Position numbers and translations under genes: made by a program. From NCBI GenBank assembly GCA_022824805.1, contig JAJDZE010000004.1, positions 3,577 to 67,576 on the forward strand: a stretch of DNA of 64,000 nt. The letters are read 5' to 3'. The notes below the pieces were generated by a model. It was not told the DNA's origin and searched no databases. It saw only the letters and a program-made list of their open reading frames with translations. This DNA comes from Acidimicrobiia bacterium. Lineage in GTDB: Bacteria; Actinomycetota; Acidimicrobiia; Acidimicrobiales; Poriferisodalaceae. Below are positions 8,669-54,550 of the stretch, piece after piece (the stretch's first letter is position 1; each line of letters begins with the position of its first letter).

Positions 8669-8817
8669 AGTCAGGAGTCATTGTCGCGCCCGGGAACGTG
8701 ATTGCGTCGGCTCAGCCTGTGTCCTCGAGTTCAGCCAATGCAGCTTGCTCTCGCGACTCAAGACTGCGGTCGCTACAGGGTTGTATGAGGTCAAGATTCG
8801 TATTACGATATTTGTAT

Positions 8818-12605: not shown

Positions 12606-12692
12606 GGCACCTCGCTGTCGGTTCGGGGCAGTCGCACGGGCCGTGCGAAGCGAGCCCCCTCAGTGAAGCGCACGACGCTCGCCGCCGCCGAC

Positions 12693-12727
12693 GGCGACCC
12701 GCAGGTCTGGCAACAATGGCGAACCCT
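12693..12727 (+). pseudogene. Stub of a paralogue of the 3' end of gene 13081..13833
   Basis: ggcgacccgcaggtctggcaacaatggcgaaccct versus 13762-13796 ggcgacccgcaggtttggcagcactggcggaccct (31/35 identical; both encode GDPQVWQ.WRTL). There is no intact ORF around it. Confidence 0.6.
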
Positions 12728-15366: not shown

Positions 15367-15475
15367 AGCGTGCTCGGGCCGTGGGACGGACGTGCCGAGA
15401 GGCGCAGCAGGGACCTGAGCGGTTGGCGGGCGAGGCGCACGAGAGCGGGAGGCATGTGGGGGTGAGGCGAGAGGT

Positions 15476-27345: not shown

Positions 27346-27787
27346 GGTCGAGACCACCGCCAGCACCAGCATCGATATTGCCGCTAGCCCCGAGGCCGTG
27401 TACGGGATCCTGACCGATCTGTCCCGGGTCAGCGAGATCAGCCCCGAGTGCTACCGGTCCGAATGGGAAGACGGCGCGACCGGTCCCGAGGTCGGGGCGA
27501 AGTTCCGTGGCTACAACCAGGCCGGCGACATGAAGTGGGATGCCGGCTGCGTCGTCGTGGCTGCCGAGCCCGGCCGGGAATGGGCATTCGAGGTGCCTGC
27601 CCCAGACGGACGCAAGACGCTCTGGCGCTACGAGATCGAGGCAACCGGCGATGGCTGCCGGGTCACCGAGAGCTTCGACTCGCCGATCCTCGACCAGGAG
27701 TTCTTCCAGAAGATGAACCGCCACAGCCTGCTGGCCAACAACATCGCCCAGTCGCTGCAGAATCTCAAGGCTGTCGCCGAGGCCTGA
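27344..27787 (+). CDS. SRPBCC family protein
   Basis: MVETTASTSIDIAASPEAVYGILTDLSRVSEISPE... is a typical SRPBCC/polyketide-cyclase-like N-terminus. Confidence 0.75.
   Translation: MVETTASTSIDIAASPEAVYGILTDLSRVSEISPECYRSEWEDGATGPEVGAKFRGYNQAGDMKWDAGCVVVAAEPGREWAFEVPAPDGRKTLWRYEIEATGDGCRVTESFDSPILDQEFFQKMNRHSLLANNIAQSLQNLKAVAEA
27728..27787 (+). repeat. Direct repeat copy A (functional 3' end of the SRPBCC gene)
   Basis: 60 nt encoding LLANNIAQSLQNLKAVAEA*; 52/60 identical to 30107-30166. Confidence 0.8.
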
Positions 27788-27930
27788 GGGGCGTCAGGCT
27801 CTCGGCCTGCTCACATCGAGCCAGAGAGGCGCTCACGGCATCGATGTGCTCATGCAATCGCCGCTGTTCAGAGGGTTGATGCAGTGGTCGTCGCGGCGTA
27901 CGTGTCACAGGGTCTACGTACGGTGGACAC

Positions 27931-29184
27931 GTGGCCGGTTCTCTCTTCGATGTCCAAGCGAGCAGCGGTGCTTCAGCCAGTGCCGAGTTGCAAGCATGTA
28001 GTTTGAGTGGCGTGGAGACGCGCAGCTCATTGAGCGTGGCTGGCTTGTTCGCTGGCATCGGCGGGATCGAACTGGGTCTGCACGATGCAGGCGCGAGAAC
28101 CGAATTGCTGTGCGAGTCGTGGGCGCCTGCCCAGGAAGTGCTGGCCAATCGGTTCCCAGGCGTGCCGATTGCGGGAGATGTGCGGGATCTGGACCGCCTC
28201 CCCGACGTGGATCTGGTGACTGCAGGGTTTCCCTGCACCGACCTCACCCAAGCCGGGCGGATGCAAGGCATCGGGGGCGAGGCCTCGGGGCTCGTCGCCG
28301 AGGTGTTCCGGCTTCTTCGGGGCCGTCGAGTGCCGCTGCTGATGCTTGAGAACGTGCGCAACATGCTCGTGCTCAACAAGGGCGAGGCCATGCGGTATCT
28401 GGTCGATGAGATCGAAGCGCTCGGTTACCGCTGGGCATACCGACTCGTCGACTCGCGATTCACGGGGGTGCCGCAGCGCCGTCAGCGGGTCATCTTCATC
28501 GCGTCCCTCGATCTTGACCCTCGCTCGGTGCTGTTCGCTGATGAGGCTGGGGAGCCCAGCGATGACCATTTCCGAGACGACGCATTCGGCTTCTACTGGA
28601 CTGAAGGCCACCGCGGCCTCGGCTGGGCGAAAGACGCCGTACCGACACTCAAGAACGGCTCGACCATCGGCATCCCGTCACCGCCGGCCATTTGGAACCC
28701 GGCGGGCCTTGCTGGTGGGCGAATCCTCACGCCTTCCATCGAGGAAGCGGAGCAGATGCAGGGTTTCGAGCGCGGCTGGACTGCGCCTGCGGCGCTGGCG
28801 TCCAATCGGAAGGGCACCCGCTGGAAGCTGGTCGGCAATGCTGTCACCGTGGGAGTGTCACGGTGGGTCGGCGAACGGCTTGCGAGTCCGGGATCACCCG
28901 TGTCCGAGGGCCAACCGCTGCAACGAGGCCAGCGGTGGCCTACGGCTGCCCATGGCGACCGGGGGGCTGTGCGAGCTATGGACCTCTCGCTGTGGCCACG
29001 TCACGAGCGGTATCAGCACCTGTCGGAGGCCGTCGATTTCGCAAGTGCCACGCCGCTTTCTGCCCGTGCGACCGCCGGCTTCTACGGCCGAACTCAGAAG
29101 GGTTCGCTGCGATTCGTCGATCAGTTCCTCGTCGACGTCGCCGAGCACGCAGCCTGCATGGCCGGAAAACTCGCCGCCGCCTGA
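27931..29184 (+). CDS. DNA (cytosine-5)-methyltransferase
   Basis: Motif I LFAGIGG, motif IV GFPCTDLTQAG, motif VI LMLENV, motif VIII QRRQRVIFIAS, motif X LVGNAVTVGV. Start uncertain (GTG 27931, or GTG 28012 closer to motif I). Confidence 0.85.
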   Translation: MAGSLFDVQASSGASASAELQACSLSGVETRSSLSVAGLFAGIGGIELGLHDAGARTELLCESWAPAQEVLANRFPGVPIAGDVRDLDRLPDVDLVTAGFPCTDLTQAGRMQGIGGEASGLVAEVFRLLRGRRVPLLMLENVRNMLVLNKGEAMRYLVDEIEALGYRWAYRLVDSRFTGVPQRRQRVIFIASLDLDPRSVLFADEAGEPSDDHFRDDAFGFYWTEGHRGLGWAKDAVPTLKNGSTIGIPSPPAIWNPAGLAGGRILTPSIEEAEQMQGFERGWTAPAALASNRKGTRWKLVGNAVTVGVSRWVGERLASPGSPVSEGQPLQRGQRWPTAAHGDRGAVRAMDLSLWPRHERYQHLSEAVDFASATPLSARATAGFYGRTQKGSLRFVDQFLVDVAEHAACMAGKLAAA

Positions 29185-29242
29185 CGATGATCGGCCGCAC
29201 CGTTAGCTCGGTGCTGGGGTGCTACGATGTACGCTCGCGAGA

Positions 29243-30085
29243 ATGGATGGGGCGGAGATTCTTGTTGCTTCGCTGCGGCGAGCGCTGATCGCTGACAAGT
29301 ACGGCAACAACTGGCAGTATCACTCGCGTAGCGATCGTCACTCCAAGGTCGCCTGCTGGGGCATAGCGTTCGACCTGCTTCAGACATCCTCGCTGCTGCG
29401 GCACCATGTCGCCGAGGGCAAGGTTGTGATCGGCGTCAACCACACGATGAGGGACTTCGGCACCGGGCGAAAGAAGGATCTGGACTTGGTGCTGGCCCGA
29501 CCGGCAGGCCAGATCGATGAGGGTGTGACGCTCTCAGGACTGGCTCAGCACTATGACGTCGAACTCAGCGGTGATCAACGTCGCCAACTGAACGCGCTGC
29601 CCGACTGCCGGGTGGGACCCGTCGGGGCAGTACTCGTGGCGCTGGAAGCCAAGGCAACGATGACGGCCCACATCAGGGCGTTGCCGCGTTTGTATGACGA
29701 ACTGAACTCGTCGCACCTGTGCGTCCACGGCGCTAGCAAGCAGGCGCTGGCCGTGGGATTCGTGATGGTGAATGCCTCCGACGCCTTCGCTTCCTCAGAC
29801 ATGAACAAGGGTGATATCTCGCAGGGGCTCGCCTTCACGACGGAGCCTCAACCACGCTCCGTGGAGCGAGTGCTGGCGAAGGTGGCGGAGATTCCTCGGC
29901 GGTCGAACGTCAGGGACAACGGCTTCGACGGCATCGGCGTCGTCGTGGTCAATGGCAGAAACGATGGAACGCCGTACACGCTTGAGGACGGCGCGCCAGC
30001 GCCGCGGCCCGGAGAGCCGTTCCACTACGACGGCATGATCGCCCGCATGGCCAACGAGTACGACACCACCTTCGCCAGCATCTGA
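29243..30085 (+). CDS. Putative PD-(D/E)XK restriction endonuclease partner of the MTase
   Basis: I recognise no family, but KKDLDLVLARP ... VLVALEAKATM fits a D...E-x-K nuclease core. Lies immediately downstream of the C5-MTase inside the same insert. Confidence 0.45.
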   Translation: MDGAEILVASLRRALIADKYGNNWQYHSRSDRHSKVACWGIAFDLLQTSSLLRHHVAEGKVVIGVNHTMRDFGTGRKKDLDLVLARPAGQIDEGVTLSGLAQHYDVELSGDQRRQLNALPDCRVGPVGAVLVALEAKATMTAHIRALPRLYDELNSSHLCVHGASKQALAVGFVMVNASDAFASSDMNKGDISQGLAFTTEPQPRSVERVLAKVAEIPRRSNVRDNGFDGIGVVVVNGRNDGTPYTLEDGAPAPRPGEPFHYDGMIARMANEYDTTFASI

Positions 30086-30106
30086 AATGAGATGCACAGC
30101 CACACC

Positions 30107-30166
30107 TTGCTGGCCAACAACATCGCCCCGTCGCTGGAGAACCTCGATGCTGTCGCAGCGGCCTGA
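30107..30166 (+). repeat. Direct repeat copy B (orphan, diverged stub of an SRPBCC 3' end)
   Basis: Encodes ...HTLLANNIAPSLENLDAVAAA* with no upstream gene body; 87 % identical to 27728-27787. Confidence 0.8.
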
Positions 30167-30181
30167 AGGGGACGCTGGCGG

Positions 30182-42049: not shown

Positions 42050-42121
42050 ACTCCCGTTACGTTGCGAAGCAAGCCCGCAGGCCTATCAGATGTTCTTGCT
42101 GCTCCGAGCCCGGTCGAGCCT

Positions 42122-42781
42122 TCAGGCACTTGGCGTCAATCCCCACAGCGCGACGCTGACGCTCTCTTGCAACTGGAGCACCATGTCGTCGTAGTCGAGC
42201 CGATCGGTGACGAGACGCCGCATGAGCACCTGCCACTGCGCGTAGAGGTTGTGGGCAAGCATCATCTTGGGAACGTCGGCGTCGAGCTTGCCGCTTGCGC
42301 TCGCGGCACTGAGCACCGATGAAAGCCCGCTCAGAAACCAGTCGGTGAACTCTTCGACGCCGGCGCGTCCAGAGTCGCTGGCGAAAGGAAGCTCCTTGAA
42401 GAACGAGCGAGCGAGGCGGCGATCTGCCCTGTGGTGGTCGGTGACATGCATCAGCAACGTCATGATCTGGCTGACAGCGTCGGTCGAGGGGTCGACGAGG
42501 TCGAAGGCCTCCCGCCACGCATCGCCCGCCACGTTCACGAATGCGCTGACTAGCAGGTCCTCCTTGGACTCCACGTAGAGGTAGAGCGTCCCGGCACCGA
42601 TCCCCGCAGCCGAGGCGATCTCAGCCGTGGTGGTGTCGTCGAAGCCTTTCTCCTGGAACAGCGCCGTGGCAGCAGCCACGATGCGCCTCCGCTTGTCGAG
42701 CTTGTTCCGCTCGCGCTTGCCCAACTCGGTCTCATCGAAAGCGGCGTCGCCGCGCAGGAGCGTGGGGTAGGCAACTGACAT
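42122..42781 (-). CDS. TetR family transcriptional regulator
   Basis: RRRIVAAATALFQEKGFDDTTTAEIASAAGIGAGTLYLYVESKEDL is the HTH signature. Confidence 0.85.
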   Translation of the reverse strand: MSVAYPTLLRGDAAFDETELGKRERNKLDKRRRIVAAATALFQEKGFDDTTTAEIASAAGIGAGTLYLYVESKEDLLVSAFVNVAGDAWREAFDLVDPSTDAVSQIMTLLMHVTDHHRADRRLARSFFKELPFASDSGRAGVEEFTDWFLSGLSSVLSAASASGKLDADVPKMMLAHNLYAQWQVLMRRLVTDRLDYDDMVLQLQESVSVALWGLTPSA

Positions 42782-43003
42782 CGCCGAACAACGCTAGCCG
42801 CAGCAAAATGGGCGCCTCTCCGGCGGGAATCCAAGGACTCGAGCGGGCAGGCGGCGAGGCGTCGGCAGGAGGCCCGCATTTGCACCTCGCTTGCCTGGTG
42901 ATGTCCAGCTACCCGAGCGGCTCCTCAGTCGGTGCGTTCTCACCGCAGCGAGCGGTTCGGCGGTCGTTTGACGGCGCGGGGTGTTCTCGGTAGACCATCG
43001 CCT

Positions 43004-43843
43004 ATGGGGATTGACATCGAACCGACCGGCGCTGCGCTCGGAGCGTTCGTGTCGGGTCTGGAATTGGGCAAGCTCGACGCGGAGCAATCCGCCACGGTGA
43101 TCGAGGCGCTCGGCGAGCACGGGGTGCTGTTCTTCCGCGACCAAGATGTGTCGCCCGAAGGGCACATCGCATTCGCTGAGTCGTTCGGGGAGATCGACGT
43201 CAACGCGTACTTCGCGCCGAACGGGACCTATCCCCAGATCGCCGAGGTGCGCACCCGACCGGAGAACACCTACGTGATCGGGGAGGCGTGGCACACCGAT
43301 CATTCCTACGAGGAAGCTCCTGCGCTCGGCTCGATCCTCGTCGCCCGGGAGCTGCCGTCACACGGCGGCGACACCGCCTTCAGCTCGATGTACGCCGCCT
43401 ACGACGCGTTGTCCGACGGCATGAAGGAGACGCTGCGGGGCCTGCGAGCGGTGCATTCGTCGTACGAGGCGTTCGGCGTGGGGTTGTCGAAGCTGCCAGA
43501 GGCCGAGCGGGCTGATCGATTCACAGACGAATTCCCCTTCGGGCCCGACATCGTGCATCCGGTGGTGATCTCCCACCCGGTGAGCGGCCGCCCGGTGCTG
43601 TACGTCAATCGCTCGTTCACGACCCGCATCGACGGGTGGACGGCGGCCGAGAGCCGACCCCTGCTCGAGTTCCTGTTCGAGCACGGTTCGAGCGTGGAAT
43701 TCACCTACCGCTTCGGTTGGGAGCCCGGCTCGGTCGCCATGTGGGACAACCGCTGCACCTGGCACAAGGCGCTCAACGACTACCGCGGGCAGACCCGCCT
43801 GATGCACCGCATCACGGTGAAAGGCTGCCCGATCGCAGCCTGA
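43004..43843 (+). CDS. TauD/TfdA family Fe(II)/2-oxoglutarate dioxygenase
   Basis: ATG at 43004. WHTDHSYEEAP (HxD), GGDTAFSSM and WDNRCTWHKA are typical of TauD. Confidence 0.85.
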   Translation: MGIDIEPTGAALGAFVSGLELGKLDAEQSATVIEALGEHGVLFFRDQDVSPEGHIAFAESFGEIDVNAYFAPNGTYPQIAEVRTRPENTYVIGEAWHTDHSYEEAPALGSILVARELPSHGGDTAFSSMYAAYDALSDGMKETLRGLRAVHSSYEAFGVGLSKLPEAERADRFTDEFPFGPDIVHPVVISHPVSGRPVLYVNRSFTTRIDGWTAAESRPLLEFLFEHGSSVEFTYRFGWEPGSVAMWDNRCTWHKALNDYRGQTRLMHRITVKGCPIAA

Positions 43844-43916
43844 TGTTGCGGCGACAGTTGGCGTTCGTCGCCGGCCGGGCTTTATCACATGAGCCACCAT
43901 CGCGAGAGCGTGCCTG
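43782..43916 (+). repeat. Direct repeat copy 1 (last 62 nt of tauD plus 73 nt downstream)
   Basis: 43782-43845 is identical over 64 nt to 46160-46223. The next approx. 70 nt are a diverged match ending in the shared block ccaccatcgcgagagcgtgcctg. Confidence 0.9.
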
Positions 43917-43917
43917 G

Positions 43918-43967
43918 CTAGCCCTGATTGGGGCCTGTCGAATCTGACAGAACTCAATCAGGGCTAG
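43918..43967 (+). other. 13-bp perfect inverted repeat CTAGCCCTGATTG-N24-CAATCAGGGCTAG at the left island junction
   Basis: Read directly. It starts exactly where repeat copy 1 ends. No T-tract follows, so it could be a terminator for tauD or a recombination-site remnant. Confidence 0.45.
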
Positions 43968-44124
43968 GCGCCGCGACCTGCCACGGCAGCACTCCCGTGC
44001 TAGCGCCTCGCTTGGGGCGGGCCGCTCATGCTGCTCGGGACGCGCCCGCTCGCCCGCGCGGCCCTACACTTGAACACCTCCGACCGACCCCGTAGCACAG
44101 CCATCGAATCCTTGAGGTGCACTC

Positions 44125-45552
44125 ATGTTCACGTCAATGAGACTCCGGGATTTCAAATCTTGGTCGAATACCGGACGAATCCGCCTTGCCCCCATCACTG
44201 GCTTCTTCGGTGCCAACAGCTCCGGAAAGTCAAGTCTTCTCCAATCGCTGGTCTTGATGAAGCAAACAGCTCAATCGAGCGACCAGAAGACGCTCTTGAA
44301 CATTTCCGGTCATGACAGCATCATTGATTTTGGCAACTATGGGCACATAGGGCATCAGGACAGCTTCAGTTTTCTCCTCATGGAGTTCCAGTGGCAGCAG
44401 GCTCACTATGCGGACGTGCTGGACCCAAGCCTCCTTGGCGCGATATATGACTCCGAGTCCAGCACTGAGGTTGCCGTCAGCAAAGAGCCGGCCCAGGAAC
44501 TCCGGTTCCGACTCGGGGTCCTGCTTCAAAAGGGGTGGCCTGAACTCTCCGATCTGGCCCAGATCGAATATGAGACAGGATCAGCAAAAGTCAGCTATTT
44601 GCCATCGGACCTTCAGTTATCAAATTGGAGCCGGGGTCATCGGCTCCAGATTGAAGCAAAGTCCTCTGGCTCGGACGCACCGCATATCTACCATGCTCTC
44701 GCCGAACTGCCTCGGCCTGCGAAGTGCTATGGCTTTCCGAACACTGCCGACATCGATGCGGACACGAAAGGCCTGCTCAGGCTGCTGGAAGTCAGCTTTG
44801 AGCAGCAGTTTCTCGACAAGCTTTTCTACCTTGGCCCGCTGCGTCAGAGCGCTTCGCGGACCTATCTCTGGAGGCAGTCAGCCCCGGCCGATGTTGGCAC
44901 TGACGGGTCGAATGCAATTCAAGCGCTGCTCGCTGCGCGGGATCGCGGCAAGACCAACACACGAAAACTTGCTGCAGACCGAACACCTGCCGAACCGATC
45001 ACCATTGAAGAACATGTCTCGCAATGGCTGCAGGAACTCGGGCTTGCCTCGGTATTCGAGACTCGAAGGCTGAGCGACGAGGATTATTTCTATGAGGTGA
45101 TCCTGCGAGCTGCTCCAGGCGCTCGCCAGATTCCGCTTGTTGACGTGGGCTTCGGTCTCTCTCAGGTGCTCCCCGTGCTCGTGCTTTTGGCCTACGTACC
45201 GGAACATACGACTGTGCTGCTTGAACAACCTGAGATGCATCTCCATCCTGCGGCTCAAGCGGGACTCGCTGACATCTTGATCGAAGTCGCCAAGGTGCGG
45301 AAGCTGCAAATAATCGTCGAGAGCCATAGCGAACACCTGCTGGCGCGTCTCCAGCGACGGATGGCGGAAGAAAGGATCGACGGCGACGATGTGGCGCTGT
45401 ACTTCTGCGAGCACGATGGGTACAAGTCCGAGATCACCTCGCTCGAACTCAACGAGTTCGGGGAAATCCGGAACTGGCCGAAACACTTCTTCGGAGATGC
45501 GATGGGCGAAGCGGTGGCCATGATCGAAGCGCGGGCGCGCCGCGAAGACTGA
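44125..45552 (+). CDS. ABC/AAA_15-21-type ATPase with DUF3696-like C-terminus
   Basis: Walker A GANSSGKSS (K35), YLGPLRQSASRTY motif, signature-like GFGLSQVLPVL, Walker B VLLEQPEMHLHP, H-loop ESHSEHLL, C-terminal EIRNWPKHFFGD. RBS GAGGTG lies upstream of the ATG. Confidence 0.8.
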   Translation: MFTSMRLRDFKSWSNTGRIRLAPITGFFGANSSGKSSLLQSLVLMKQTAQSSDQKTLLNISGHDSIIDFGNYGHIGHQDSFSFLLMEFQWQQAHYADVLDPSLLGAIYDSESSTEVAVSKEPAQELRFRLGVLLQKGWPELSDLAQIEYETGSAKVSYLPSDLQLSNWSRGHRLQIEAKSSGSDAPHIYHALAELPRPAKCYGFPNTADIDADTKGLLRLLEVSFEQQFLDKLFYLGPLRQSASRTYLWRQSAPADVGTDGSNAIQALLAARDRGKTNTRKLAADRTPAEPITIEEHVSQWLQELGLASVFETRRLSDEDYFYEVILRAAPGARQIPLVDVGFGLSQVLPVLVLLAYVPEHTTVLLEQPEMHLHPAAQAGLADILIEVAKVRKLQIIVESHSEHLLARLQRRMAEERIDGDDVALYFCEHDGYKSEITSLELNEFGEIRNWPKHFFGDAMGEAVAMIEARARRED

Positions 45553-45581
45553 TCTACTGATCGCCTACAGCACCACTGGGC

Positions 45582-46067
45582 ATGGATCTCCAAGTCATCG
45601 ACACGAATGTGCTGGTTGCCGCCAACGGCACCGAGACGCACGCTGACCAGGCGTGCACGCTGGCTTGTGCACGACGGTTGCAGGAGACTCAGGACAACGC
45701 CGTTCTCGTCCTGGACGCGCAGCGGAACATCATGAGGGAATACCAGCGAAGAATCGGATCCGAAAGTCGCAACACAGCAGCCAAGAGGTTCTTCGTGTGG
45801 GCATCAAGGACCGCTCCGGGACTCGACGTGCAGCTCACACCCCATGCGAACCGGGTGTTCGAGGAATTCCCACCGAGCGATCGTCTTCGAGACTTCGACG
45901 AAGATGATCGGATGTTCGTTGCGGCGGCTGCTGTTGCTTCACAGTCCCGCCCGACAGTTCTTGCCAACGCGCTCGATAATGACTACGCCGAACACCGAGC
46001 AGCTCTTCAAGAGGCAGGCATCCCGGTTGAAGAACTCTGTCCGCATCACCTACGGGTCGAGTCATAG
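45582..46067 (+). CDS. PIN-like nuclease domain protein
   Basis: MDLQVIDTNVLVAANG (first acidic residue D7), EY, DFDEDDRMFVAAA and NALDND give a PIN-like acidic-residue arrangement. Starts 29 nt after the ATPase stop. Confidence 0.6.
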   Translation: MDLQVIDTNVLVAANGTETHADQACTLACARRLQETQDNAVLVLDAQRNIMREYQRRIGSESRNTAAKRFFVWASRTAPGLDVQLTPHANRVFEEFPPSDRLRDFDEDDRMFVAAAAVASQSRPTVLANALDNDYAEHRAALQEAGIPVEELCPHHLRVES

Positions 46068-46159
46068 CTGCGCCGCCACACGGCGTCTGCCACATCGCGG
46101 CCACCGCTGCGTTGTGCGATGTCGCTTGTGTCGTGTAGCCGAGGCTGTCAGATGCCAGC

Positions 46160-46293
46160 ACCGCGGGCAGACCCGCCTGATGCACCGCATCACGGTGAAA
46201 GGCTGCCCGATCGCAGCCTGATGCTGGAGCGACGGCCGGTCCTCGTCGTCGGCCGGGCGCTTCGCATACGCCACCATCGCGAGAGCGTGCCTG
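46160..46293 (+). repeat. Direct repeat copy 2 (orphan tauD 3' stub plus ancestral tauD-arylsulfatase spacer)
   Basis: Encodes ...RGQTRLMHRITVKGCPIAA* without a gene body. It runs straight into the arylsulfatase start at 46307. Confidence 0.9.
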
Positions 46294-46306
46294 CTAGACG
46301 AAGGCG

Positions 46307-48568
46307 ATGCGCGACCGCGAACGCCCTGGAACCACCGCCGCAGAGCTGAAGCCGCACTGGGACCCGAGCCCCGCGCCGCCCCACGGCGCGCCCAACGTCG
46401 TAGTGATCGTGCTCGACGACACGGGATTTGCGCACCTCGGCTGCTACGGCAGCGACATCGACACGCCCAACATCGATCGGCTCGCCGCGGGCGGGCTCCG
46501 TTACACCAACTTCCACACGACAGCATTGTGCTCGCCGACACGGGCCTGCCTGCTCAGCGGCCGCAACCATCACTCGGTGGGCATGCGGTTCCTGTCGAAT
46601 GTCGACACGGGTTTCTCGAACTGCCGCGGCGTGATCGCGCCGTCGGCGGCCACCTTCGCCGAAGTGCTCTCCAGTTACGGCTACGCGAACTTCGCCCTGG
46701 GCAAATGGCACCTCGCCAACCTCGCGGACTGCGGCCCGGCGGGCCCGTTCGATCATTGGCCGCTAGGCCGCGGCTTCGACCGCTTCTACGGCTTCCTGGG
46801 CGGGGCAACCGACCAGTTCTCGCCCGAGCTCGTCATCGACAACCACCCGGTGGCCCCTCCGAGCACGCCCGGCTATCACCTGTCCGAGGACCTTGTCGAG
46901 CAGGCGATCGCCATGATCGCTGCACAGCAGGCCACAGCGCCGTCGCGCAGATTCCTGACCTACTTCGCATTCGGTGCCACGCACTCGCCACATCAAGCTC
47001 CGCAGGACTACTTGGACAAGTACCGGGGCCGCTACGACGACGGCTGGGACGTGGCGCGGGCGCGTTGGTTCGAACGCCAGCGGGAGCTGGGCGTGGTGCC
47101 GGCCGACGCCGAGCTGTCGCCGCGGAACCCCGGGGTGCAGGCATGGGACGAGCTCGACGACGACCAGCGGTTGCTCTATTGCCGTATGCAGGAGACCTTC
47201 GCCGCATTCTTGGACCACACCGACGATCAGATCGGCCGGCTCGTCGACTACCTGGAGCGCACCGGCCTGCTGGACGACACCCTCATCGTGCTGCTGTCCG
47301 ACAACGGCGCCTCGCAGGAGGGCGGCCGACACGGCCTAACCAACGAGAACATCTTCTTCAATCGCCAGCGGCTCAGCGTCGCCGACATGGTGCCGTTCGT
47401 GGACCAGATCGGCGGCCCCAACCTCTACAACAACTACCCGTGGGGCTGGGCGCAGGCCGGCAACACGCCGCTTCGCTTCTACAAGCAGAACACCTACGAG
47501 GGCGGCATCCGAGACCCGCTGATCGTGCACTGGCCGGCCGGCATCGACGACGCCGGGGGGATCCGCGACCAGTACCACCATGTCATCGACGTGATGCCGA
47601 CGATCCTCGAGGTGGTCGGGGTCGAAGCACCCCAAGTGCACAACGGCGTGCCGCAGCAGCCCGTCGAAGGCATCTCGATGCTCCCCACGTTCGCAGCAGG
47701 AAGCGCAGATGCCCCGTCGTCTCGCACCACGCAGTACTACGAGATGCTCGGCCACCGGGCCGTATACCACGATGGCTGGAAAGCGGTGACGTTGCACCGC
47801 CAGGGGACGCCGTTCGGCGAGGACGAATGGGCGCTGTATGACACCCGCAGCGATTTTGCTGAGATCCATGACGTGTCTGAGACCCACCCGGACAAGCTGC
47901 GCGAGCTGATCGAGCTGTGGTGGGACGAGGCCGACACCTACAACGTGCTGCCGCTCGACGATCGGGGGGTCGAACTGTTCGTACTGCGTCAGCCCGGTCC
48001 CGAGTCCTCAGCGGGACTGCTGCGCTACCCGGCCGGCATGCCACACCTGGAGCGCTTCAAATGCCCCGATGTGCGGAACCGCTCCTTCGAGATCGCAGTT
48101 TCGGCCGATACCTCGACAGGAACCGACGGTGTGCTGGTGGCCTACGGGTCACGCACCGGCGGGCTCGTGCTGTGGGTCGCCGACGGGAGGCTGTGCTTCG
48201 AATACAACTACCTCGGCCGTCCGACCGGGATGCGGGCCAGCGCGCCGGTGCCGCTCGGCGACGTCGAGTTGGGCGTGCGTTACGCGAAGACGGCCGAGCA
48301 TGCCGGCACGGCCACACTGTGGCAGCGCGCCGGCGACGGGCCCGAGCAGGAACTCGCAACGGCCGACCTCGTGACCATGCCATACCGCCAATCGCTGTAC
48401 GGGATGGACGTGGGGCGCGACCTCGGCCCCACCGTGAGTGCCGCCTACACCGGACCGAACGAGTTCCACGGACTGTTGCGGTACGTGGAGTTCCGCTTGG
48501 AGAACGACCGCGACGACCTGCGCGCAGCAGCAGCCGTCGAAGCCGAGAACGCGCTGGTCGACCAGTAG
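46307..48568 (+). CDS. Arylsulfatase (Cys-type, formylglycine-dependent)
   Basis: VVVIVLDDTGFAHLGCYGS...TALCSPTRACLLSGRNHH (CxPxR), DNGAS. 753 aa with a C-terminal extension. Confidence 0.85.
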   Translation: MRDRERPGTTAAELKPHWDPSPAPPHGAPNVVVIVLDDTGFAHLGCYGSDIDTPNIDRLAAGGLRYTNFHTTALCSPTRACLLSGRNHHSVGMRFLSNVDTGFSNCRGVIAPSAATFAEVLSSYGYANFALGKWHLANLADCGPAGPFDHWPLGRGFDRFYGFLGGATDQFSPELVIDNHPVAPPSTPGYHLSEDLVEQAIAMIAAQQATAPSRRFLTYFAFGATHSPHQAPQDYLDKYRGRYDDGWDVARARWFERQRELGVVPADAELSPRNPGVQAWDELDDDQRLLYCRMQETFAAFLDHTDDQIGRLVDYLERTGLLDDTLIVLLSDNGASQEGGRHGLTNENIFFNRQRLSVADMVPFVDQIGGPNLYNNYPWGWAQAGNTPLRFYKQNTYEGGIRDPLIVHWPAGIDDAGGIRDQYHHVIDVMPTILEVVGVEAPQVHNGVPQQPVEGISMLPTFAAGSADAPSSRTTQYYEMLGHRAVYHDGWKAVTLHRQGTPFGEDEWALYDTRSDFAEIHDVSETHPDKLRELIELWWDEADTYNVLPLDDRGVELFVLRQPGPESSAGLLRYPAGMPHLERFKCPDVRNRSFEIAVSADTSTGTDGVLVAYGSRTGGLVLWVADGRLCFEYNYLGRPTGMRASAPVPLGDVELGVRYAKTAEHAGTATLWQRAGDGPEQELATADLVTMPYRQSLYGMDVGRDLGPTVSAAYTGPNEFHGLLRYVEFRLENDRDDLRAAAAVEAENALVDQ

Positions 48569-48574
48569 GCCCCC

Positions 48575-48607
48575 TCAGGGCTCGATCAGACGTGCCGCGG
48601 GTGACCG
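48575..48607 (-). pseudogene. Stub resembling the 3' end of the alkylsulfatase gene
   Basis: tcagggctcgatcagacgtgccgcgggtgacc versus 50006-50036 tcagggctcgatcaaacgtgccgtggtgaac (about 28/32). On the minus strand it reads ...AARLIEP* versus TTARLIEP* of the intact gene. Confidence 0.55.
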
Positions 48608-48694
48608 GCTGCAGGCTCGTGTTGCCGCCCGTGCTGGGCGTCGTGTTATGGCGCGGCAGCCGCATCAGGCGTTGCCTCGGATACAGTTCGGGAT

Positions 48695-49315
48695 ATGCGT
48701 AATCTCCGTATTGCGTCCATTGCGGGTCCATTCGACGATGTCGGACTGGCGACGCGTGCTGCTGCGGCATTGAGCCGTGCCGACGCAATGGGCCTGCTGA
48801 GCGGGGCGATCACCTGCCTGGACTACTCCGCGCTTGAAGAGCTTCGGTCGGGCATGGCTGACGCCGGTATCGGTCGTGTATTCGTCACCGAGCTCGATCA
48901 ACTTGGCGCTCGTGAGCCGGAGCGGCTTTCGGCACTGGTGGCGAAGATCATCGAGGCCTTGGAGCAGTCGCCTGCGCCAGCCCACGAATGGCCCGCTGTG
49001 GCACAGATGCTCGGGCTCGACCTGCTGGTTCGGCTCCTCGGCATCTCGCTGTCGAGCGCTCGGCGGTACCTCTCGGGCGAGCGGGCGACACCCGACGCGG
49101 TGGCCGCTCGCTTGCACTTCTTGGCTCTCGTTGCGGGCGACTTGGCGGGTGCGTACAACGACATCGGTGTCCGGCGATGGTTCGACCGACCACGGTCACG
49201 GCTGGGTGGTGCCGCCCCCGCCGAAGAGCTCGGTCAGGACTGGTCGCCCGACGACCCCGCAGCGCAAGGGGTTCGCGAACTCGCCGCTGCACTGGTCTCG
49301 TCACCGGCGACATGA
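48695..49315 (+). CDS. Xre-like antitoxin with DUF2384 (MbcA/ParS-type) C-terminal domain
   Basis: C-terminal GVRRWFDRPRSRLGGAAPAEEL matches the DUF2384 pattern (W...P...LgG..P..ll). ATGA overlap with the RES gene. Confidence 0.7.
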   Translation: MRNLRIASIAGPFDDVGLATRAAAALSRADAMGLLSGAITCLDYSALEELRSGMADAGIGRVFVTELDQLGAREPERLSALVAKIIEALEQSPAPAHEWPAVAQMLGLDLLVRLLGISLSSARRYLSGERATPDAVAARLHFLALVAGDLAGAYNDIGVRRWFDRPRSRLGGAAPAEELGQDWSPDDPAAQGVRELAAALVSSPAT

Positions 49316-49830
49316 TCGCCTTCCGTCACACTGATCCGCGCTTTCCTTTTCTTTGGGAGGGCGTGTTGCAGCCCGCGGCCCGTTGGAACGACGACGGTGA
49401 CCTCACTCACTACTTCTGCGACACGCCCGACGGCGCGTGGGCCGAGTTACTGCGTCACGAAGAGATCAGTGACCCGGCCGATGTCGAAACGATCCGACGT
49501 GCGCTGTGGGCGGTCGAGATCGGAGAACCTCCGTCGCTTCGGCCCGATCTGCCACAGGCGACGATGACCGGCGATCCGTCGACCTGGCCGGAGTGCAGAG
49601 AGTTCGCGCGTTCGCGCCGAGACGAGGCCGCCGGCCTCACCGCGCCGTCAGCGGCGTTGAAACCAGGTGGAGCTCGGGGCTGGCGGGTCGACAACGGCCT
49701 GCAGTCCGGACCCGAACGGGACGGAGGCGTCTTCGTCCTCTTCGGTCCCCGGCCGGATCTTGTGGGATGGGCTGCGACCGCCGAGGGTTGCCCCGACCAG
49801 ACGTTGCTGGACAGCGTGGCCCATTTCTGA
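49312..49830 (+). CDS. RES domain toxin (NAD+-targeting family)
   Basis: ATG at 49312: MIAFRHTDPRFPFLWEGVLQPAARWNDDG..YFCDTPDGAWAELLRHE...LTAPSAAL has the R...E...S arrangement of RES domains. Confidence 0.75.
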   Translation: MIAFRHTDPRFPFLWEGVLQPAARWNDDGDLTHYFCDTPDGAWAELLRHEEISDPADVETIRRALWAVEIGEPPSLRPDLPQATMTGDPSTWPECREFARSRRDEAAGLTAPSAALKPGGARGWRVDNGLQSGPERDGGVFVLFGPRPDLVGWAATAEGCPDQTLLDSVAHF

Positions 49831-50005
49831 AGCACCGCCACGATGTGGCGCTTCGTATTTTGCCGGGGTGAAGAGGATCGGGGGTCCGCAGGTCACCCCC
49901 AAGATCTCCGACCGTCTTCGCACGGCACCTGCCGTTTGACCGCTGCTGCCGCATTCTGATCATCAGGACCTGCGTCCTCCGACGTGACCGGTCGCCATCT
50001 CGCCG

Positions 50006-51904
50006 TCAGGGCTCGATCAAACGTGCCGTGGTGAACGCAGTGAGGCCGGCCAGCAGCGACTGCAGCAGGGCCCGATCGCCGGTGATCTCGGCACCGTCGA
50101 GCGCGCTGGCGTCGTTGAGTGCAGCGAAGAGGGTGGCACGGTCGGTCCGGACCGAGGCGACGGCAGCAGGATCGACCGCATTGGCCCGGTGGTGCACAGC
50201 GGAACGGCCGACACCGAGTACGTGATCCTCACCGAGGTCGGTGAACCGGAAGTTGAACGTAATCGGCCCCGCATCGAAGACGTCGGGATCGAACCGAACG
50301 CCGATCACGTCGAACAGGTGCTCAGCGCTCATGGCCTGGGACATGTCGCGGGTGGGCACGCGGCCCCAGTCGGGCGTGCCTTCACGCAGTTCCTTGGCGC
50401 CCATCAGGTAGGCGTTGCGCCACGTCGCCGACTCCGACTGGTAGCCGAGCTGTTCGAGCGCGTCGGCCTGCAGGCTGCGAGCTTCGCGGTTCGCCGGGTC
50501 GGCAAAGACCACGTGGTTGACCACTTGGGCCACCCAGCGGTACTCGCCCCGCTCGTAGCACGCGCGGGCTCTGGCCAGCACGGCACTTGCGCCGCCCATG
50601 AACTCGACGTAGTTGGCGCCCGCCTCAGCCGGCGGCAGCGGATTGAGATTGGCCGGGTTGCCGTCGTACCAGCCGAGGTAGCGGTTGTACACCGAGCGGC
50701 AGTTGTGCGACACCGTGCCGTAGTAGCCCTGCACATGCGACTCGCTGAACTCAGCCGGCAGCCGCAGCCGGGCGGCGATCTCGGTCGGTCGCAGTCCTTG
50801 GTTGGCCAGGCGCATCGTCTGGTCGTGCATCCAGCGGTACAGGTCGCGCTGCATCGACAGGAAGCCCCGCACGTCGGCGTTGCCGAACCGGGGCCAGTGG
50901 TGGCTGGCGAACATGACGTCGGTGTCGTCGCCCCACATTTCGAGCGCCTCGCCGATGTACTTGCTCCACGCCAGCGCGTCGCGGGTCTGCGCACCCCGGA
51001 TCGGGTAGAGGTTGTGCATCGTGTGCGTGCAGTTCTCGGCCATGCACAGCAGGTTCTTGTCTGGGAAGAAGAAGTTCATCTCCGCGGGCGCTTCGGCGTC
51101 GGGCGTGTTCTGGAACACGATCCGGATGCCGCTGAGCTCGCGCTCCTCCCCGGTGCGGGTGATGACGTCGGTGGGCGCCAGCAGATCCGATCGGGCCAGA
51201 CACATCGCCGAGCCCAAGCCGCAGTCGACGTGGCCCAGCGGCCCCGGAGGCAGCAGCGGCCCGAACTGGTACGCGGCCCGCCTGCCCATGATCGGGCCGG
51301 CAATGACGAACTCGCTGACCACCTCTTCGAGGAATCCGTCAGGCGCCACGATCTCCACCTCGCCGCGGGCCACCGACTCGGCGTCGGTCACGCCGAGCAC
51401 GCCGCCGAAATGGTCTGCGTGCGAATGCGTGTAGATGATTGCCCGCACCGGCCGCTCGCCCAGCGTGCGATTGGCCAGGTCCAGCGCTGCCGCCGCCGAG
51501 GGCCGGGTGGTGAGGGGATCGATGATCAGCCAACCGTCGGCGCCCGCCAGGAACGTGATGTTGGCAATGTCGTAACCACGCACCTGCCAGACACCGTCGG
51601 CCACCTCGAACAGTCCGTGATGGACGTTGAGCCGTGCCTGCCGCCACAGGCTCGGATGCACCGACGGGGGCGCCTCGGCTGATTCGTCGACGAAGGCGTG
51701 CCGGGCCACGTCGAACACGACGTGGTTGCCCATCGTGACGCGACCGTCGTCAATCTGGGCGATGAGTCCACGAGAAGCTCGTTCAAAATCTCCCGGGTCG
51801 TCGAATCGAATCACCGCGCCGGCTCGGGACGCCGCTTCATTCGCCGCAACGGTGAACTGCGTCGGGGGCTTCGACGCTTCGGGCCCGGCGTTGTCGGTGG
51901 TCAT
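50006..51904 (-). CDS. MBL-fold alkyl/aryl-sulfatase (SdsA1/Bds1-like) with C-terminal SCP2-like domain
   Basis: Start MTTDNAGPEA at 51904. IIYTHSHADHFGG metallo-beta-lactamase motif and the dimerisation/SCP2-like tail typical of alkyl sulfatases. Confidence 0.85.
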   Translation of the reverse strand: MTTDNAGPEASKPPTQFTVAANEAASRAGAVIRFDDPGDFERASRGLIAQIDDGRVTMGNHVVFDVARHAFVDESAEAPPSVHPSLWRQARLNVHHGLFEVADGVWQVRGYDIANITFLAGADGWLIIDPLTTRPSAAAALDLANRTLGERPVRAIIYTHSHADHFGGVLGVTDAESVARGEVEIVAPDGFLEEVVSEFVIAGPIMGRRAAYQFGPLLPPGPLGHVDCGLGSAMCLARSDLLAPTDVITRTGEERELSGIRIVFQNTPDAEAPAEMNFFFPDKNLLCMAENCTHTMHNLYPIRGAQTRDALAWSKYIGEALEMWGDDTDVMFASHHWPRFGNADVRGFLSMQRDLYRWMHDQTMRLANQGLRPTEIAARLRLPAEFSESHVQGYYGTVSHNCRSVYNRYLGWYDGNPANLNPLPPAEAGANYVEFMGGASAVLARARACYERGEYRWVAQVVNHVVFADPANREARSLQADALEQLGYQSESATWRNAYLMGAKELREGTPDWGRVPTRDMSQAMSAEHLFDVIGVRFDPDVFDAGPITFNFRFTDLGEDHVLGVGRSAVHHRANAVDPAAVASVRTDRATLFAALNDASALDGAEITGDRALLQSLLAGLTAFTTARLIEP

Positions 51905-51992
51905 TGCGCGCTCCTGCGTTGGGGTCGTGAGGCTTCCGGCTCGCCGCGGGCCACCGACTCGGCGTCTGTCGCGCCGAGGATGCTGGGCCGGA

Positions 51993-53231: not shown

Positions 53232-53280
53232 CGGAGTGCTCCTGTGTCGAGGGCGGGTTCGGTTCTGCCAGAGTGCATGA

Positions 53281-53304
53281 TCGTGTCGAATGTCGTGTCG
53301 AATG
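53281..53304. repeat. Tandem 12-mer TCGTGTCGAATG x2 in the TetR-P450 spacer
   Basis: Read directly, with TCATGA-like flanks. It produces the RHDIRHDIRHD artefact in the over-long P450 ORF. Confidence 0.6.
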
Positions 53305-54486: not shown

Positions 54487-54550
54487 ACGGCTAATCTAGG
54501 GCCAGGGCGCAGCGGCGGAATGCCGCGAACTGCTGCAGAGGGGAACCGAC

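What the first reader, a model, noticed from the sequence alone, without database searches (positions are those of the whole stretch)
43782..46293. 135-bp direct repeats (64-bp perfect core) duplicating the tauD 3' end flank the island: att-like junctions without any integrase
43782-43845 and 46160-46223 are identical over 64 nt (the last 62 nt of tauD including the stop, plus 2 nt). The following approx. 70 nt are homologous but diverged, re-converging on ccaccatcgcgagagcgtgcctg(g)ctag.

Copy 1 completes the functional tauD. Copy 2 is an orphan stub (...RGQTRLMHRITVKGCPIAA*) fused to the ancestral spacer 13 nt before the arylsulfatase ATG. This is the classic attL/attR picture of an element that integrates into a gene 3' end and carries a replacement 3' end.

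However, the 2.2 kb between the repeats encodes no recombinase. The left junction also carries a perfect 13-bp inverted repeat (43918-43967). This suggests a trans-mobilised (CIME-like) cassette, a decayed element, or homology-facilitated cassette exchange.
Basis: seen in the sequence. Interest (0 to 1): 0.68.

Follow-up and report, generated by a model that had tools for sequence, protein, structure and literature searches.

The report
Integrase-free defence cassette with displaced tauD end
A two-gene anti-phage cassette sits between two sulfur-scavenging genes of an uncultured sponge-symbiont actinobacterium, flanked by a 139-bp repeat of the upstream gene's end, and it most likely arrived by ordinary homology-guided recombination from a related lineage, not by a self-mobile element.

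Summary
Window 43782-43845 and 46160-46223 are identical over 64 nt. The repeat continues to ~139 nt: a 47-nt middle part only 66% identical, then 27 nt identical apart from one extra G.

All 12 related Acidimicrobiia (Ca. Poriferisodalis) loci that span both flanks show the empty site, with tauD followed by a 73-85 nt spacer and then the arylsulfatase.

The 2.2-kb insert is a HEC-03 anti-phage system (ABC ATPase plus small partner, PIN per Payne 2024). Its GC3 is 0.65 against 0.87 in host genes. No recombinase domain was found in the insert, in homologous islands elsewhere, or in the large ORFs of the 64-kb window.

The att-like geometry recurs:
- Twice more in this window, around an R-M pair and a RES toxin pair.
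- Twice in relatives.
- Each case involves a different gene's 3' end, with repeat lengths of about 33-148 nt and no shared core.

This matches the described but mechanistically unsolved class "insertion with long target duplication" (Nobusato 2000; Furuta 2010), here with non-R-M cargo.

The repeat copies look like alleles from two lineages. I therefore favour homology-anchored import that displaced the resident tauD 3' end, over site-specific integration. The sequence alone cannot settle the mechanism. This is a new member of a known kind, of moderate interest.

The parts
43004..43843 (+). tauD (TauD/TfdA dioxygenase, 279 aa). Its last 62 nt lie in repeat copy 1.
   Evidence: Pfam TauD 3.4e-69. 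Orthologues at 78-95% aa identity in L001-L013.
43782..43921 (+). Direct repeat copy 1. It comprises the core 43782-43845 (tauD 3' end plus stop plus 2 nt), the hypervariable centre 43846-43892, and the conserved terminal part through CTAG, 43893-43921. It is proposed to be the imported, island-linked allele.
   Evidence: The centre matches copy 2 at only 31/47 and L001/L002 at 36-37/51.
43918..43967 (.). Imperfect palindrome bracketed by CTAG, lying exactly between the end of repeat copy 1 and the cassette-homologous DNA. It may be a hairpin or terminator-like insulator. Its origin is unexplained.
   Evidence: Fold -45.3 kcal/mol, z -5.8. Unique in the window and found only in same-strain loci. 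It is absent from homologous cassettes. Metagenome matches to its arms are unrelated hairpins.
43968..44124 (+). Cassette upstream (promoter/regulatory) region, conserved with homologous cassettes. Conserved motifs include CCTGCCACGGCA and CCTACACT.
   Evidence: Alignment with L048, L049, L051 and L053. BLAST homology starts at about 44046-44054.
44125..45552 (+). HEC-03 ABC-type ATPase (475 aa; AAA_21/AAA_15 plus DUF3696).
   Evidence: PADLOC model HEC-03B 1.1e-114. Pfam AAA_21 2e-22 and DUF3696 2e-12. GC3 0.65.
45582..46067 (+). HEC-03 small partner protein (161 aa). It is PIN-like according to Payne et al. 2024.
   Evidence: PADLOC model HEC-03A 5.2e-26. The paper describes HEC-03 as ATPase plus PIN, with both genes needed for defence. 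No Pfam or PDB sequence hit here.
46101..46138 (+). Degenerate orphan 3' end (ending ...GTGTAG) of a BD-FAE/Abhydrolase_3 gene. This is an older stub carried inside the cassette from its usual site next to Amidohydro_2.
   Evidence: Alignment with cassette right ends of L048, L049, L051 and L053 and with the functional BD-FAE 3' end in L049. A 44-nt repeat is present in L049.
46139..46159 (+). 21 nt of unassigned junction DNA (CCGAGGCTGTCAGATGCCAGC) between the old stub and repeat copy 2. It is the proposed illegitimate joint.
   Evidence: Homology to other cassettes ends near here. Homology to tauD starts exactly at 46160.
46160..46297 (+). Direct repeat copy 2. It comprises the orphan tauD 3' stub (46160-46221 including the stop) plus the spacer. 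It is proposed to be the displaced resident allele.
   Evidence: Its central part is closer to L001/L002 (39-40/50) than copy 1's is.
46307..48568 (+). Arylsulfatase, the ancestral downstream neighbour of tauD.
   Evidence: Pfam Sulfatase 4.6e-64. It directly follows tauD in L001-L007 and L009-L013.
48575..50038 (.). Second island with the same geometry. It contains an orphan stub of the alkylsulfatase 3' end (48575-48607, possibly to about 48620), a RES-domain toxin pair (48788-49315 and 49312-49830), and the functional alkylsulfatase 3' end (50006-50038).
   Evidence: Relatives have the empty site, TAG-6 nt-TCA. RES Pfam 1.6e-6. Gene calls come from L046.
27711..30170 (+). Third island with the same geometry. 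An 81-nt repeat (27711-27791 and 30090-30170, 85% identical) duplicates the last 77 nt of an SRPBCC/polyketide-cyclase gene. It flanks a C5 DNA methyltransferase (27931-29184) and a 288-aa ORF (29219-30085).
   Evidence: The empty site was not verified.

Best explanation
The 2.24-kb segment 43922-46159 is a horizontally acquired HEC-03 anti-phage cassette with no mobility machinery of its own.

Proposed history:
1. In a related Poriferisodalis-like donor lineage, the cassette lay in the tauD-sulfatase spacer, just after the CTAG.
2. Donor DNA entered this lineage and paired with the resident tauD through ordinary RecA-type homology. This was the anchor.
3. The far, non-homologous end was joined illegitimately to the resident chromosome 62 nt before the tauD stop.
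4. The donor's tauD end, spacer and cassette now complete tauD. The resident tauD end and spacer were pushed downstream as an orphan stub in front of the sulfatase.

A circularised fragment integrating by a single crossover would give the same sequence.

The direct repeats are therefore a recombination scar made of two alleles of one locus, not att sites. As a by-product, the 64-nt identical core would allow precise RecA-mediated loss or re-capture of the cassette.

Shown: the insertion, the empty site, the cargo, the absence of a detectable recombinase, the recurrence, and the allele-like divergence of the copies.
Inferred: the donor arrangement, which copy is imported, and the enzymology.
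For: 1. The empty site is present in all 12 relatives that span both flanks, and one ~139-nt stretch in them aligns to both copies.
2. The copies do not behave as a recent in-place duplicate.
   - The centre is 31/47 identical, less than copy 2 versus L001/L002 (39-40/50).
   - The unselected 64-nt stub has 0 differences, where drift scaled to the centre predicts about 7-13 (my calculation).
3. The cargo is foreign. GC is 0.59 against 0.67, and GC3 is 0.65 against 0.87. The cassette family stays at 0.54-0.59 GC in every host.
4. No recombinase or transposase domain was found.
   - Not in the insert.
   - Not in the homologous islands.
   - Not in the ORFs scanned across the window (about 40 of 170 aa or more, plus L046 gene calls).
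5. The same geometry (gene, functional 3' end, cassette, orphan 3' end, ancestral neighbour) occurs at four other sites with different genes and repeat lengths.
   - RES island: about 33 nt, empty site verified.
   - R-M island: 81 nt.
   - L048: 148 nt. L049: 44 nt.
6. In the RES case the longest identical run is 14 nt. That is too short for a crossover within the repeat, but compatible with an anchor further inside the gene.
7. The L048 stub differs from five functional alleles by 10-16 nt in 113, within the range those alleles differ among themselves (6-15). It looks like a displaced allele.
8. The cassette carries an older BD-FAE stub from its usual site, showing that earlier moves also dragged flanking gene ends along.
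9. Precedents exist.
   - Homology-facilitated illegitimate recombination (HFIR) and "C-terminal displacement" leave orphan 3' ends (PMC5361080).
   - Integrase-free insertions with long, variable repeats spanning stop codons are documented (PMC2853133).
Against: - No donor genome with the copy-1 spacer allele was found. The nearest other cassette is only about 75% identical.
- No closer empty-site relative was found among the TauD variants listed; the nearest is 95% aa identical.
- No mosaic breakpoint could be seen in tauD.
- The assignment of copy 2 as resident rests on about 3 nt of difference in a 50-nt segment.
- The terminal 27 nt and the core are identical between the copies. Gene conversion between in-place duplicates would also produce this.
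- These lineages are finely mosaic, which blurs allele-based arguments.
- The origin of the palindrome and of the primary insertion in the donor is unexplained.
- Why repeats are always short (150 nt or less) is explained only by an appeal to selection or survivorship.
Confidence: 0.52

Rival explanations
1. True long target duplication in place. The recipient's own 139-bp target was duplicated during insertion, for example through widely staggered breaks or two sister chromatids with fill-in. The hypervariable centre then diverged, while gene conversion kept the core and the terminal part identical.
For: - This is the literal model behind the published class "insertion with long target duplication".
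- The core and the terminal 27 nt are identical between the copies, while L001/L002 differ at 3-4 of 27.
- The repeat copies of the R-M and RES islands show many non-synonymous differences, as expected of a decaying stub.
- Fine-scale conversion tracts are common in these lineages.
Against: - The unselected stub has 0/64 differences against 16/47 in the adjacent centre. Without conversion, P is below 1e-3 (my calculation).
- In the centre the two copies are less alike than copy 2 is to another species.
- Conversion would have to stop sharply at both edges of the centre.
- All relatives, including the closest ones, lack the insertion. The required divergence would therefore need an event as old as the species split, yet the cargo is still unameliorated.
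Confidence: 0.2
2. Site-specific integration. The repeats are attL and attR of a decayed or trans-mobilised (CIME-like) element that targets the tauD 3' end and uses an integrase encoded elsewhere or since lost.
For: - Geometry is classic: a gene 3' end replaced by an element-borne copy, an identical 64-nt core, and a clean empty site.
- Only 64 kb of the genome could be inspected.
Against: - No recombinase in the insert, the window, or five homologous islands.
- Five analogous insertions use unrelated sequences and repeats of about 33-148 nt.
- The L048 repeat has no identical core.
- The homology covers the whole intergenic spacer (139 nt), not a compact att site.
- No element of any kind sits at tauD in 12 relatives.
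- Close relatives of the cassette lie in a different site and also have no integrase.
Confidence: 0.12
3. Assembly artefact, or a mixture of forms. The true state would be an empty chromosome plus a separate or circular molecule, or a strain chimera, mis-joined through the 64-nt repeat.
For: - The Logan unitig L047 spans exactly the unique part plus 30 nt of core at each end. This is equally compatible with a circle.
- L046 and L047 may derive from the same or sister samples.
Against: - Two assemblies give the integrated form across 17 kb with only 6 mismatches, none near the island.
- The repeat copies differ, and each has its own unique flank.
- A 2.4-kb circle with no replication gene would not persist.
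- The same geometry is seen at other sites and in other assemblies.
Confidence: 0.03

Closest known systems
Insertion with long target duplication (Nobusato et al. 2000, Gene 259:99; Furuta, Abe & Kobayashi 2010, NAR, PMC2853133)
   Same: - A small defence cassette of less than 20 kb with no mobility genes.
- Flanked by long (over 30 bp), variable-length direct repeats.
- The repeat sequence is single-copy at an empty site in related genomes.
- The repeat spans a stop codon, so the target gene stays intact.
- The class has been recorded in an actinobacterium (Clavibacter).
   Different: - The published cases are R-M genes, and the authors suspected cargo-made DNA breaks. Here the cargo is an ABC ATPase plus PIN system, and next door a RES toxin pair.
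- The two repeat copies are not duplicates of one target. They look like alleles from two lineages, which points to a homology anchor rather than a duplicated target.
Homology-facilitated illegitimate recombination and "C-terminal displacement" in rhs, CDI and T6SS effector-immunity arrays (Kirchberger et al. 2017, PMC5361080; Jackson et al. 2009 and de Vries & Wackernagel 2002, as cited there)
   Same: - Incoming DNA is anchored by homology in the conserved upstream part of a gene.
- It brings a new 3' end plus cargo.
- The resident 3' end is pushed downstream and kept as an orphan.
- Serial events leave nested orphans, as with the BD-FAE stub followed by the tauD stub here.
   Different: - The incoming 3' end here is an orthologous copy with the same protein end, not a new toxin domain.
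- The orphan has no function.
- The illegitimate joint lies inside the anchor gene, so a short duplication results rather than a deletion.
Integrase-borne genomic islands at gene 3' ends, and their integrase-less derivatives (CIMEs); named from general knowledge
   Same: - Direct repeats flank the island.
- The element-side copy restores the gene's 3' end.
- The empty site is clean.
   Different: - No integrase was detected anywhere.
- There is no common core among the sites.
- The homology is 139 nt and covers a whole spacer.
- No cognate element occupies this site in relatives.
HEC-03 defence system (Payne et al. 2024, bioRxiv 10.1101/2024.01.29.577857)
   Same: - The gene pair is an ABC ATPase (DUF3696) plus a small PIN-like protein.
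- Relatives of the cassette sit beside a ResIII helicase and a large methyltransferase, as in Hma-embedded loci (L048, L051, L053).
   Different: - Here the pair stands alone, outside any Hma-like system.
- It lies in a metabolic operon of an uncultured sponge symbiont.
- Its activity is untested.

Membership tests
Site-specific integrative element / CIME | A tyrosine or serine recombinase gene in the element, or a cognate element using the same site | tested here: not met
   No such Pfam domain in the insert, in the ORFs scanned across the window (about 40 of 170 aa or more), or in five homologous islands. No element at tauD in 12 relatives. The rest of the genome was not available.
Site-specific integrative element / CIME | A short identical core shared by attL and attR and by related elements at their sites | tested here: inconclusive
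   A 64-nt identical core exists here, but it coincides with the conserved coding part. Related islands use other genes, and the L048 repeat has no identical core.
Site-specific integrative element / CIME | Excision to a circle with restoration of the empty site | not testable with these tools
   No read data. The Logan unitig L047 is ambiguous.
Insertion with long target duplication | Direct repeats longer than 30 bp flank the insert | tested here: met
   140 and 138 nt.
Insertion with long target duplication | The repeated sequence is single-copy at an empty site in a related genome | tested here: met
   12 relatives. For example, L001 8779-8917 aligns to both copies.
Insertion with long target duplication | Insert under 20 kb with no other mobile-element genes | tested here: met
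   2,238 bp with two genes, neither mobility-related.
Insertion with long target duplication | Cargo is a restriction-modification system (the published screening criterion) | tested here: not met
   The cargo is HEC-03. A probable R-M island with the same geometry lies at 27.8-30.1 kb.
Insertion with long target duplication | Both repeat copies derive from the recipient's own target | tested here: inconclusive
   The centre is 31/47 identical, and the copies are no closer to each other than to other species. This argues against the feature, but gene conversion is not excluded.
Homology-facilitated illegitimate recombination | One joint in homologous DNA, the other at a non-homologous or microhomology site | tested here: inconclusive
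   Homology to tauD starts abruptly at 46160, with no extended similarity to the left. The donor sequence is unknown, so microhomology cannot be scored. No tauD mosaic breakpoint was found.
HEC-03 defence system | ABC ATPase matching the HEC-03 profile, next to the small partner matching its profile | tested here: met
   1.1e-114 over the full length and 5.2e-26 over the full length. The genes are 29 nt apart on the same strand.
HEC-03 defence system | Protection against phage that needs both genes | not testable with these tools
   Shown for the tested homologue in Payne et al. 2024, not for this one.

The most novel reading that the evidence does not exclude
"Insertion with long target duplication" may not be a property of restriction enzymes. 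It may be a general, cargo-independent, integrase-free route by which small defence and toxin cassettes enter gene 3' ends.

Three unrelated cargos (HEC-03, a RES toxin pair, an R-M pair) show it within 64 kb of one genome.

In the strongest form of this reading, the imported gene end acts as a portable homology arm. Host RecA can then excise, lose and re-capture the cassette across related lineages, which would be a recombinase-free mobile life cycle.
Probability: 0.3. Interest if true: 0.65.

Novelty: new member of a known kind. Interest (0 to 1): 0.45.

Why it matters
How defence systems move when they carry no mobility genes is an open question. The "long target duplication" class has had no accepted mechanism since 2000.

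This locus adds three things:
- The same scar forms around cargos that do not cut DNA, which argues against a cargo-driven mechanism.
- The repeat copies look like alleles from two lineages, which points to a homology anchor with displacement of the resident gene end.
- An uncultured sponge-symbiont clade (Ca. Poriferisodalis) has many sequenced relatives, several independent events and clean empty sites. The competing models can be tested there by comparative genomics alone.

For annotation, it is a warning that att-like repeats at a gene's 3' end do not by themselves indicate an integrative element.

Tried and rejected
Searches for closer relatives or a donor:
- A closer empty-site relative: exact-protein look-ups of TauD and the sulfatase returned only the same scaffold. 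The nearest of the 15 listed members (38 in all) of the 90% TauD cluster is 95% identical.
- The donor arrangement: exact look-ups of the ATPase and the PIN partner found only this strain. Close relatives of the ATPase are absent from viral contigs.
- A scan of the JGI metagenome collection with the core gave 0 hits.

Tests of specific ideas:
- Palindrome as a repeat family: it is unique in the window and the loci. The 27 metagenome matches to its arms are unrelated terminator-like hairpins. Viral contigs gave none. Rfam gave nothing.
- A circle inferred from the 2,374-nt Logan contig: rejected. Its ends are exactly k-1 = 30 nt into each core copy, which is a de Bruijn unitig break.
- A mosaic breakpoint in tauD: not detectable.
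- Co-inheritance of island and proximal gene end, L048 versus L049: blurred by fine-scale mosaicism.
- Similar repeat-flanked islands in the relatives' 17-kb loci: none.
- The 5-6 kb segment that relatives carry between the CoA-transferase and TetR genes has no flanking repeats.

Failed or wasted calls:
- The empty site for the R-M island could not be checked. My last protein search used an over-long ORF and too strict a threshold, and returned nothing.

Considered and dropped:
- An integron attC site: no R'/R'' motifs.
- IS200/IS605-type hairpin ends: this would not explain the 139-nt repeat.
- Terminal inverted repeats: only a 9-nt match.

Full report
**1. The observation**

The sequence is as described.
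- Window 43782-43845 and 46160-46223 are identical over 64 nt.
- A 45-nt piece of this core occurs only at these two places in 64 kb, and none of 100 shuffles gave any match.
- The repeat extends to 43921 and 46297 once the shared CTAG is counted.
- It has three parts:
  - the identical 64-nt core;
  - a central 47 nt with only 31 identities;
  - a terminal GCCACCATCGCGAGAGCGTGCCTG(G)CTAG, identical apart from one extra G.
- Copy 1 completes tauD (43004-43843; Pfam TauD 3e-69).
- Copy 2 is an in-frame orphan, RGQTRLMHRITVKGCPIAA*. It lies just upstream of the arylsulfatase ATG at 46307 (Pfam Sulfatase 5e-64).
- The palindrome at 43918-43967 is real and folds strongly (-45.3 kcal/mol, z -5.8).

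**2. It is an insertion, and the empty site exists**

The window comes from an uncultured Acidimicrobiia lineage close to sponge-associated Candidatus Poriferisodalis MAGs. TauD is 78-95% identical to theirs.

In all 12 relatives whose locus spans both flanks, tauD is followed by a 73-85 nt spacer and then the sulfatase. One ~139-nt stretch in them aligns to both repeat copies; in L001 it is 8779-8917.

The extra DNA in the window is therefore 43922-46159 (2,238 bp) plus one repeat copy.

An ENA scaffold (L046) matches 17.3 kb of the window with 6 mismatches, none near the island, and has the same arrangement.

A 2,374-nt Logan contig (L047) covers exactly the unique part plus 30 nt of core at each end. 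That is what a k=31 graph produces at a 64-nt repeat, and I do not count it as evidence for a circle.

**3. The cargo**

- ORF 44125-45552 (475 aa) carries AAA_21, AAA_15 and DUF3696. It matches the PADLOC HEC-03 ATPase profile over its full length (1e-114).
- ORF 45582-46067 (161 aa) matches the partner profile (5e-26).
- Payne et al. 2024 describe HEC-03 as an ABC ATPase plus a PIN-domain protein that protects E. coli from phages, with both genes required.
- The A/B labels of the PADLOC profiles are the reverse of those in the paper.
- The cassette is compositionally foreign. Its GC is 0.59 against 0.67 for the window, and its GC3 is 0.65 against 0.87 for the neighbouring genes.

**4. Where the cassette comes from**

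The nearest other cassettes are about 75% identical in DNA over window 44046-46125. They come from other sponge metagenome contigs: L048, L049, L051 and L053, with L058 more distant.

There they sit between a BD-FAE/Abhydrolase_3 gene and a convergent Amidohydro_2 gene. They are often next to a ResIII helicase and a large Type III-like methyltransferase, or next to VapBC, PemK or HepT/MNT modules. That gap is a variable defence hotspot.

Alignment of the cassette ends shows two things.
- The conserved unit in the window runs from about 43968, taking in the whole upstream intergenic region.
- It ends at about 46140 and includes a degenerate orphan 3' end of the BD-FAE gene at 46101-46138.

The cassette therefore carries an older stub from its usual site, nested just before the tauD stub.

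Only two pieces are specific to this insertion: the palindrome (43922-43967) and 21 nt at the right end (46139-46159).

**5. No recombinase**

Neither cassette gene is a recombinase. None of the genes in the homologous islands is one either.

No integrase, resolvase or transposase domain was found in the ORFs scanned across the window (about 40 of 170 aa or more, plus gene calls on L046). There is no tRNA gene in the window.

**6. The geometry recurs, at unrelated sites**

The pattern is: gene, then its functional 3' end, then a cassette, then an orphan copy of that 3' end, then the ancestral neighbour. I found it four more times.

| Site | Cargo | Gene end duplicated | Repeat | Empty site |
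|---|---|---|---|---|
| Window 48575-50038 | RES-domain toxin pair | Convergent alkylsulfatase | About 33 nt (perhaps 46); longest identical run 14 nt | Verified in ten relatives, where the two stop codons are 6 nt apart |
| Window 27711-30170 | C5 methyltransferase plus a 288-aa ORF | SRPBCC gene, last 77 nt | 81 nt, 85% identical | Not verified |
| L048 | 9.3-kb helicase, methylase and HEC-03 island | Amidohydro_2 end | 148 nt, 89% identical; mismatches spread evenly | Not checked |
| L049 | Island at the same hotspot | BD-FAE end | 44 nt | Not checked |

The five repeats share no sequence.

The relatives' own 17-kb loci around tauD contain no such structures.

**7. Two alleles or one duplicated target**

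The central spacer is hypervariable between species. L001 and L003 match at only 32/51.

In that segment the two window copies match at 31/47. That is less than copy 2 matches L001/L002 (39-40/50) or copy 1 matches them (36-37/51).

If the repeat had arisen in place after this lineage split from relatives that all have the empty site, the copies should be each other's closest relatives. The unselected 64-nt stub should also have drifted by about 7-13 positions. It has none.

The simplest reading is that the copies are orthologous alleles from two related lineages. They are identical where the locus is conserved (the coding end and the segment before the sulfatase start) and different where it is free to vary.

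Copy 2, next to the ancestral neighbour, is slightly more like the nearest relatives, so it is probably the resident copy.

In L048 the stub differs from five functional Amidohydro_2 alleles by 10-16 of 113 nt. Those alleles differ among themselves by 6-15. The stub again looks like a displaced allele rather than a decayed duplicate.

These are small numbers. Gene conversion between the copies is a real alternative, and the lineages are finely mosaic. I could not detect a breakpoint in tauD.

**8. Proposed mechanism**

I favour homology-anchored import with displacement of the resident 3' end.
1. In a donor lineage the cassette lay harmlessly in the spacer after the CTAG.
2. Donor DNA paired with the resident tauD by homology.
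3. Its far end was joined illegitimately 62 nt before the resident stop.
4. Selection tolerates this outcome because the incoming DNA supplies an intact gene end.

A circularised fragment integrating by one crossover gives the same product, and the two cannot be told apart from the sequence.

For the RES island the repeat is too short and too mismatched for a crossover within it. That fits an anchor deeper in the gene.

The steps that are shown are the insertion, the empty site, the cargo, the lack of a detectable recombinase, the recurrence, and the allele-like divergence. The donor structure, the direction of import and the enzymes are inferred.

The palindrome is unexplained. It is unique to this strain. 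It has no relatives in Rfam or in the collections searched. It may act as a hairpin insulator between tauD and the cassette.

**9. Comparison with what is known**

The closest described class is "insertion with long target duplication". It was defined for R-M genes from genome comparisons (Nobusato 2000; Furuta 2010, PMC2853133).

The defining features are repeats over 30 bp, a single-copy empty site in relatives, and no mobility genes. The repeats often span a stop codon. The mechanism is unknown, and the authors suggested that it depends on DNA breakage by the cargo.

This locus meets the structural criteria but not the cargo criterion. The neighbouring RES island shows the same.

The closest mechanistic analogue is homology-facilitated illegitimate recombination, as invoked for "C-terminal displacement" in rhs, CDI and T6SS loci (PMC5361080).

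It is not a member of the integrase-borne island or CIME family, because the recombinase criterion was tested and not met.

**10. Verdict**

This is a new example of a known but poorly understood kind of insertion, with different cargo and a hint about mechanism. It lies in a clade where the question could be settled by comparative genomics. Interest is moderate.

Noticed in passing
window 48575-50038: A RES-domain toxin pair (48788-49315 and 49312-49830) is inserted between the sulfatase stop and the convergent alkylsulfatase stop. It is flanked by a repeat of about 33 nt (perhaps 46) of the alkylsulfatase 3' end. Ten relatives have the empty site, with the two stops 6 nt apart.
   Followed up: yes
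window 27711-30170: A C5 DNA methyltransferase plus a 288-aa ORF (a probable R-M pair) is flanked by an 81-nt, 85%-identical repeat of the last 77 nt of an SRPBCC gene. The repeat spacing is 2,379 nt, by coincidence almost the same as at tauD (2,378). The empty site was not verified.
   Followed up: partly
window 46101-46138; L049 7468-7511 and 11735-11778: The cassette carries a degenerate orphan 3' end of a BD-FAE/Abhydrolase_3 gene. This is a scar of an earlier residence next to Amidohydro_2.
   Followed up: yes
L048 2546-12175; L049, L051, L053, L058: The gap between the BD-FAE and Amidohydro_2 genes is a variable defence and toxin hotspot in related genomes. Its contents include ResIII helicase plus Type III-like methylase, HEC-03, VapBC, PemK and HepT/MNT. 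L048 has a 148-nt repeat of the Amidohydro_2 end.
   Followed up: partly
window 42050-42122, versus L001 1188-7207: Relatives carry 5-6 kb of genes between the CoA-transferase and TetR genes that the window lacks. The junction is clean, with no flanking repeats. This is probably a deletion or a plain replacement.
   Followed up: partly
window 43943-43951 and 46146-46154: A 9-nt inverted match (ATCTGACAG and its reverse complement) lies in the palindrome and near the right end of the insert. It is not terminal and may be chance.
   Followed up: no
L047 (Logan SRR16351687 contig, 2,374 nt): The contig length equals the unique part plus 30 nt of core at each end. Repeat-bounded unitigs of this kind can mimic excised circles in k=31 assemblies.
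   Followed up: yes
L057 (Logan SRR33343638 contig): This is another HEC-03 variant. It has a shorter ATPase call (431 aa) and directly abuts an MFS gene 3' end, with no BD-FAE stub.
   Followed up: no
L011 6647-6856: A perfect tandem duplication of 105 nt (two copies) lies in a relative's TetR-side region.
   Followed up: no
window 12688-12727 and 13757-13796: A 40-nt direct repeat, 88% identical and 1,069 nt apart, surrounds an MDMPI/DinB-like gene. It could be tandem paralogues or another small insertion.
   Followed up: no
window 14755-20798, 42932-48568 and 50006-55396: The neighbourhood is rich in organosulfur genes: APS kinase, CysN/C-like protein, sulfotransferase, two TauD paralogues, an arylsulfatase and an alkylsulfatase. 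The cassette splits what looks like a tauD-sulfatase operon.
   Followed up: no
window 44125-46067: The PADLOC-DB v2 profile names are the reverse of the naming in the Payne et al. preprint. In PADLOC, HEC-03B is the ATPase and HEC-03A the small protein; in the preprint, A is the ATPase and B the PIN protein.
   Followed up: yes
window 41624-41696: Four of the six mismatches between the window and scaffold L046 cluster within 73 nt of the CoA-transferase gene. This may be a strain-level recombination patch.
   Followed up: no
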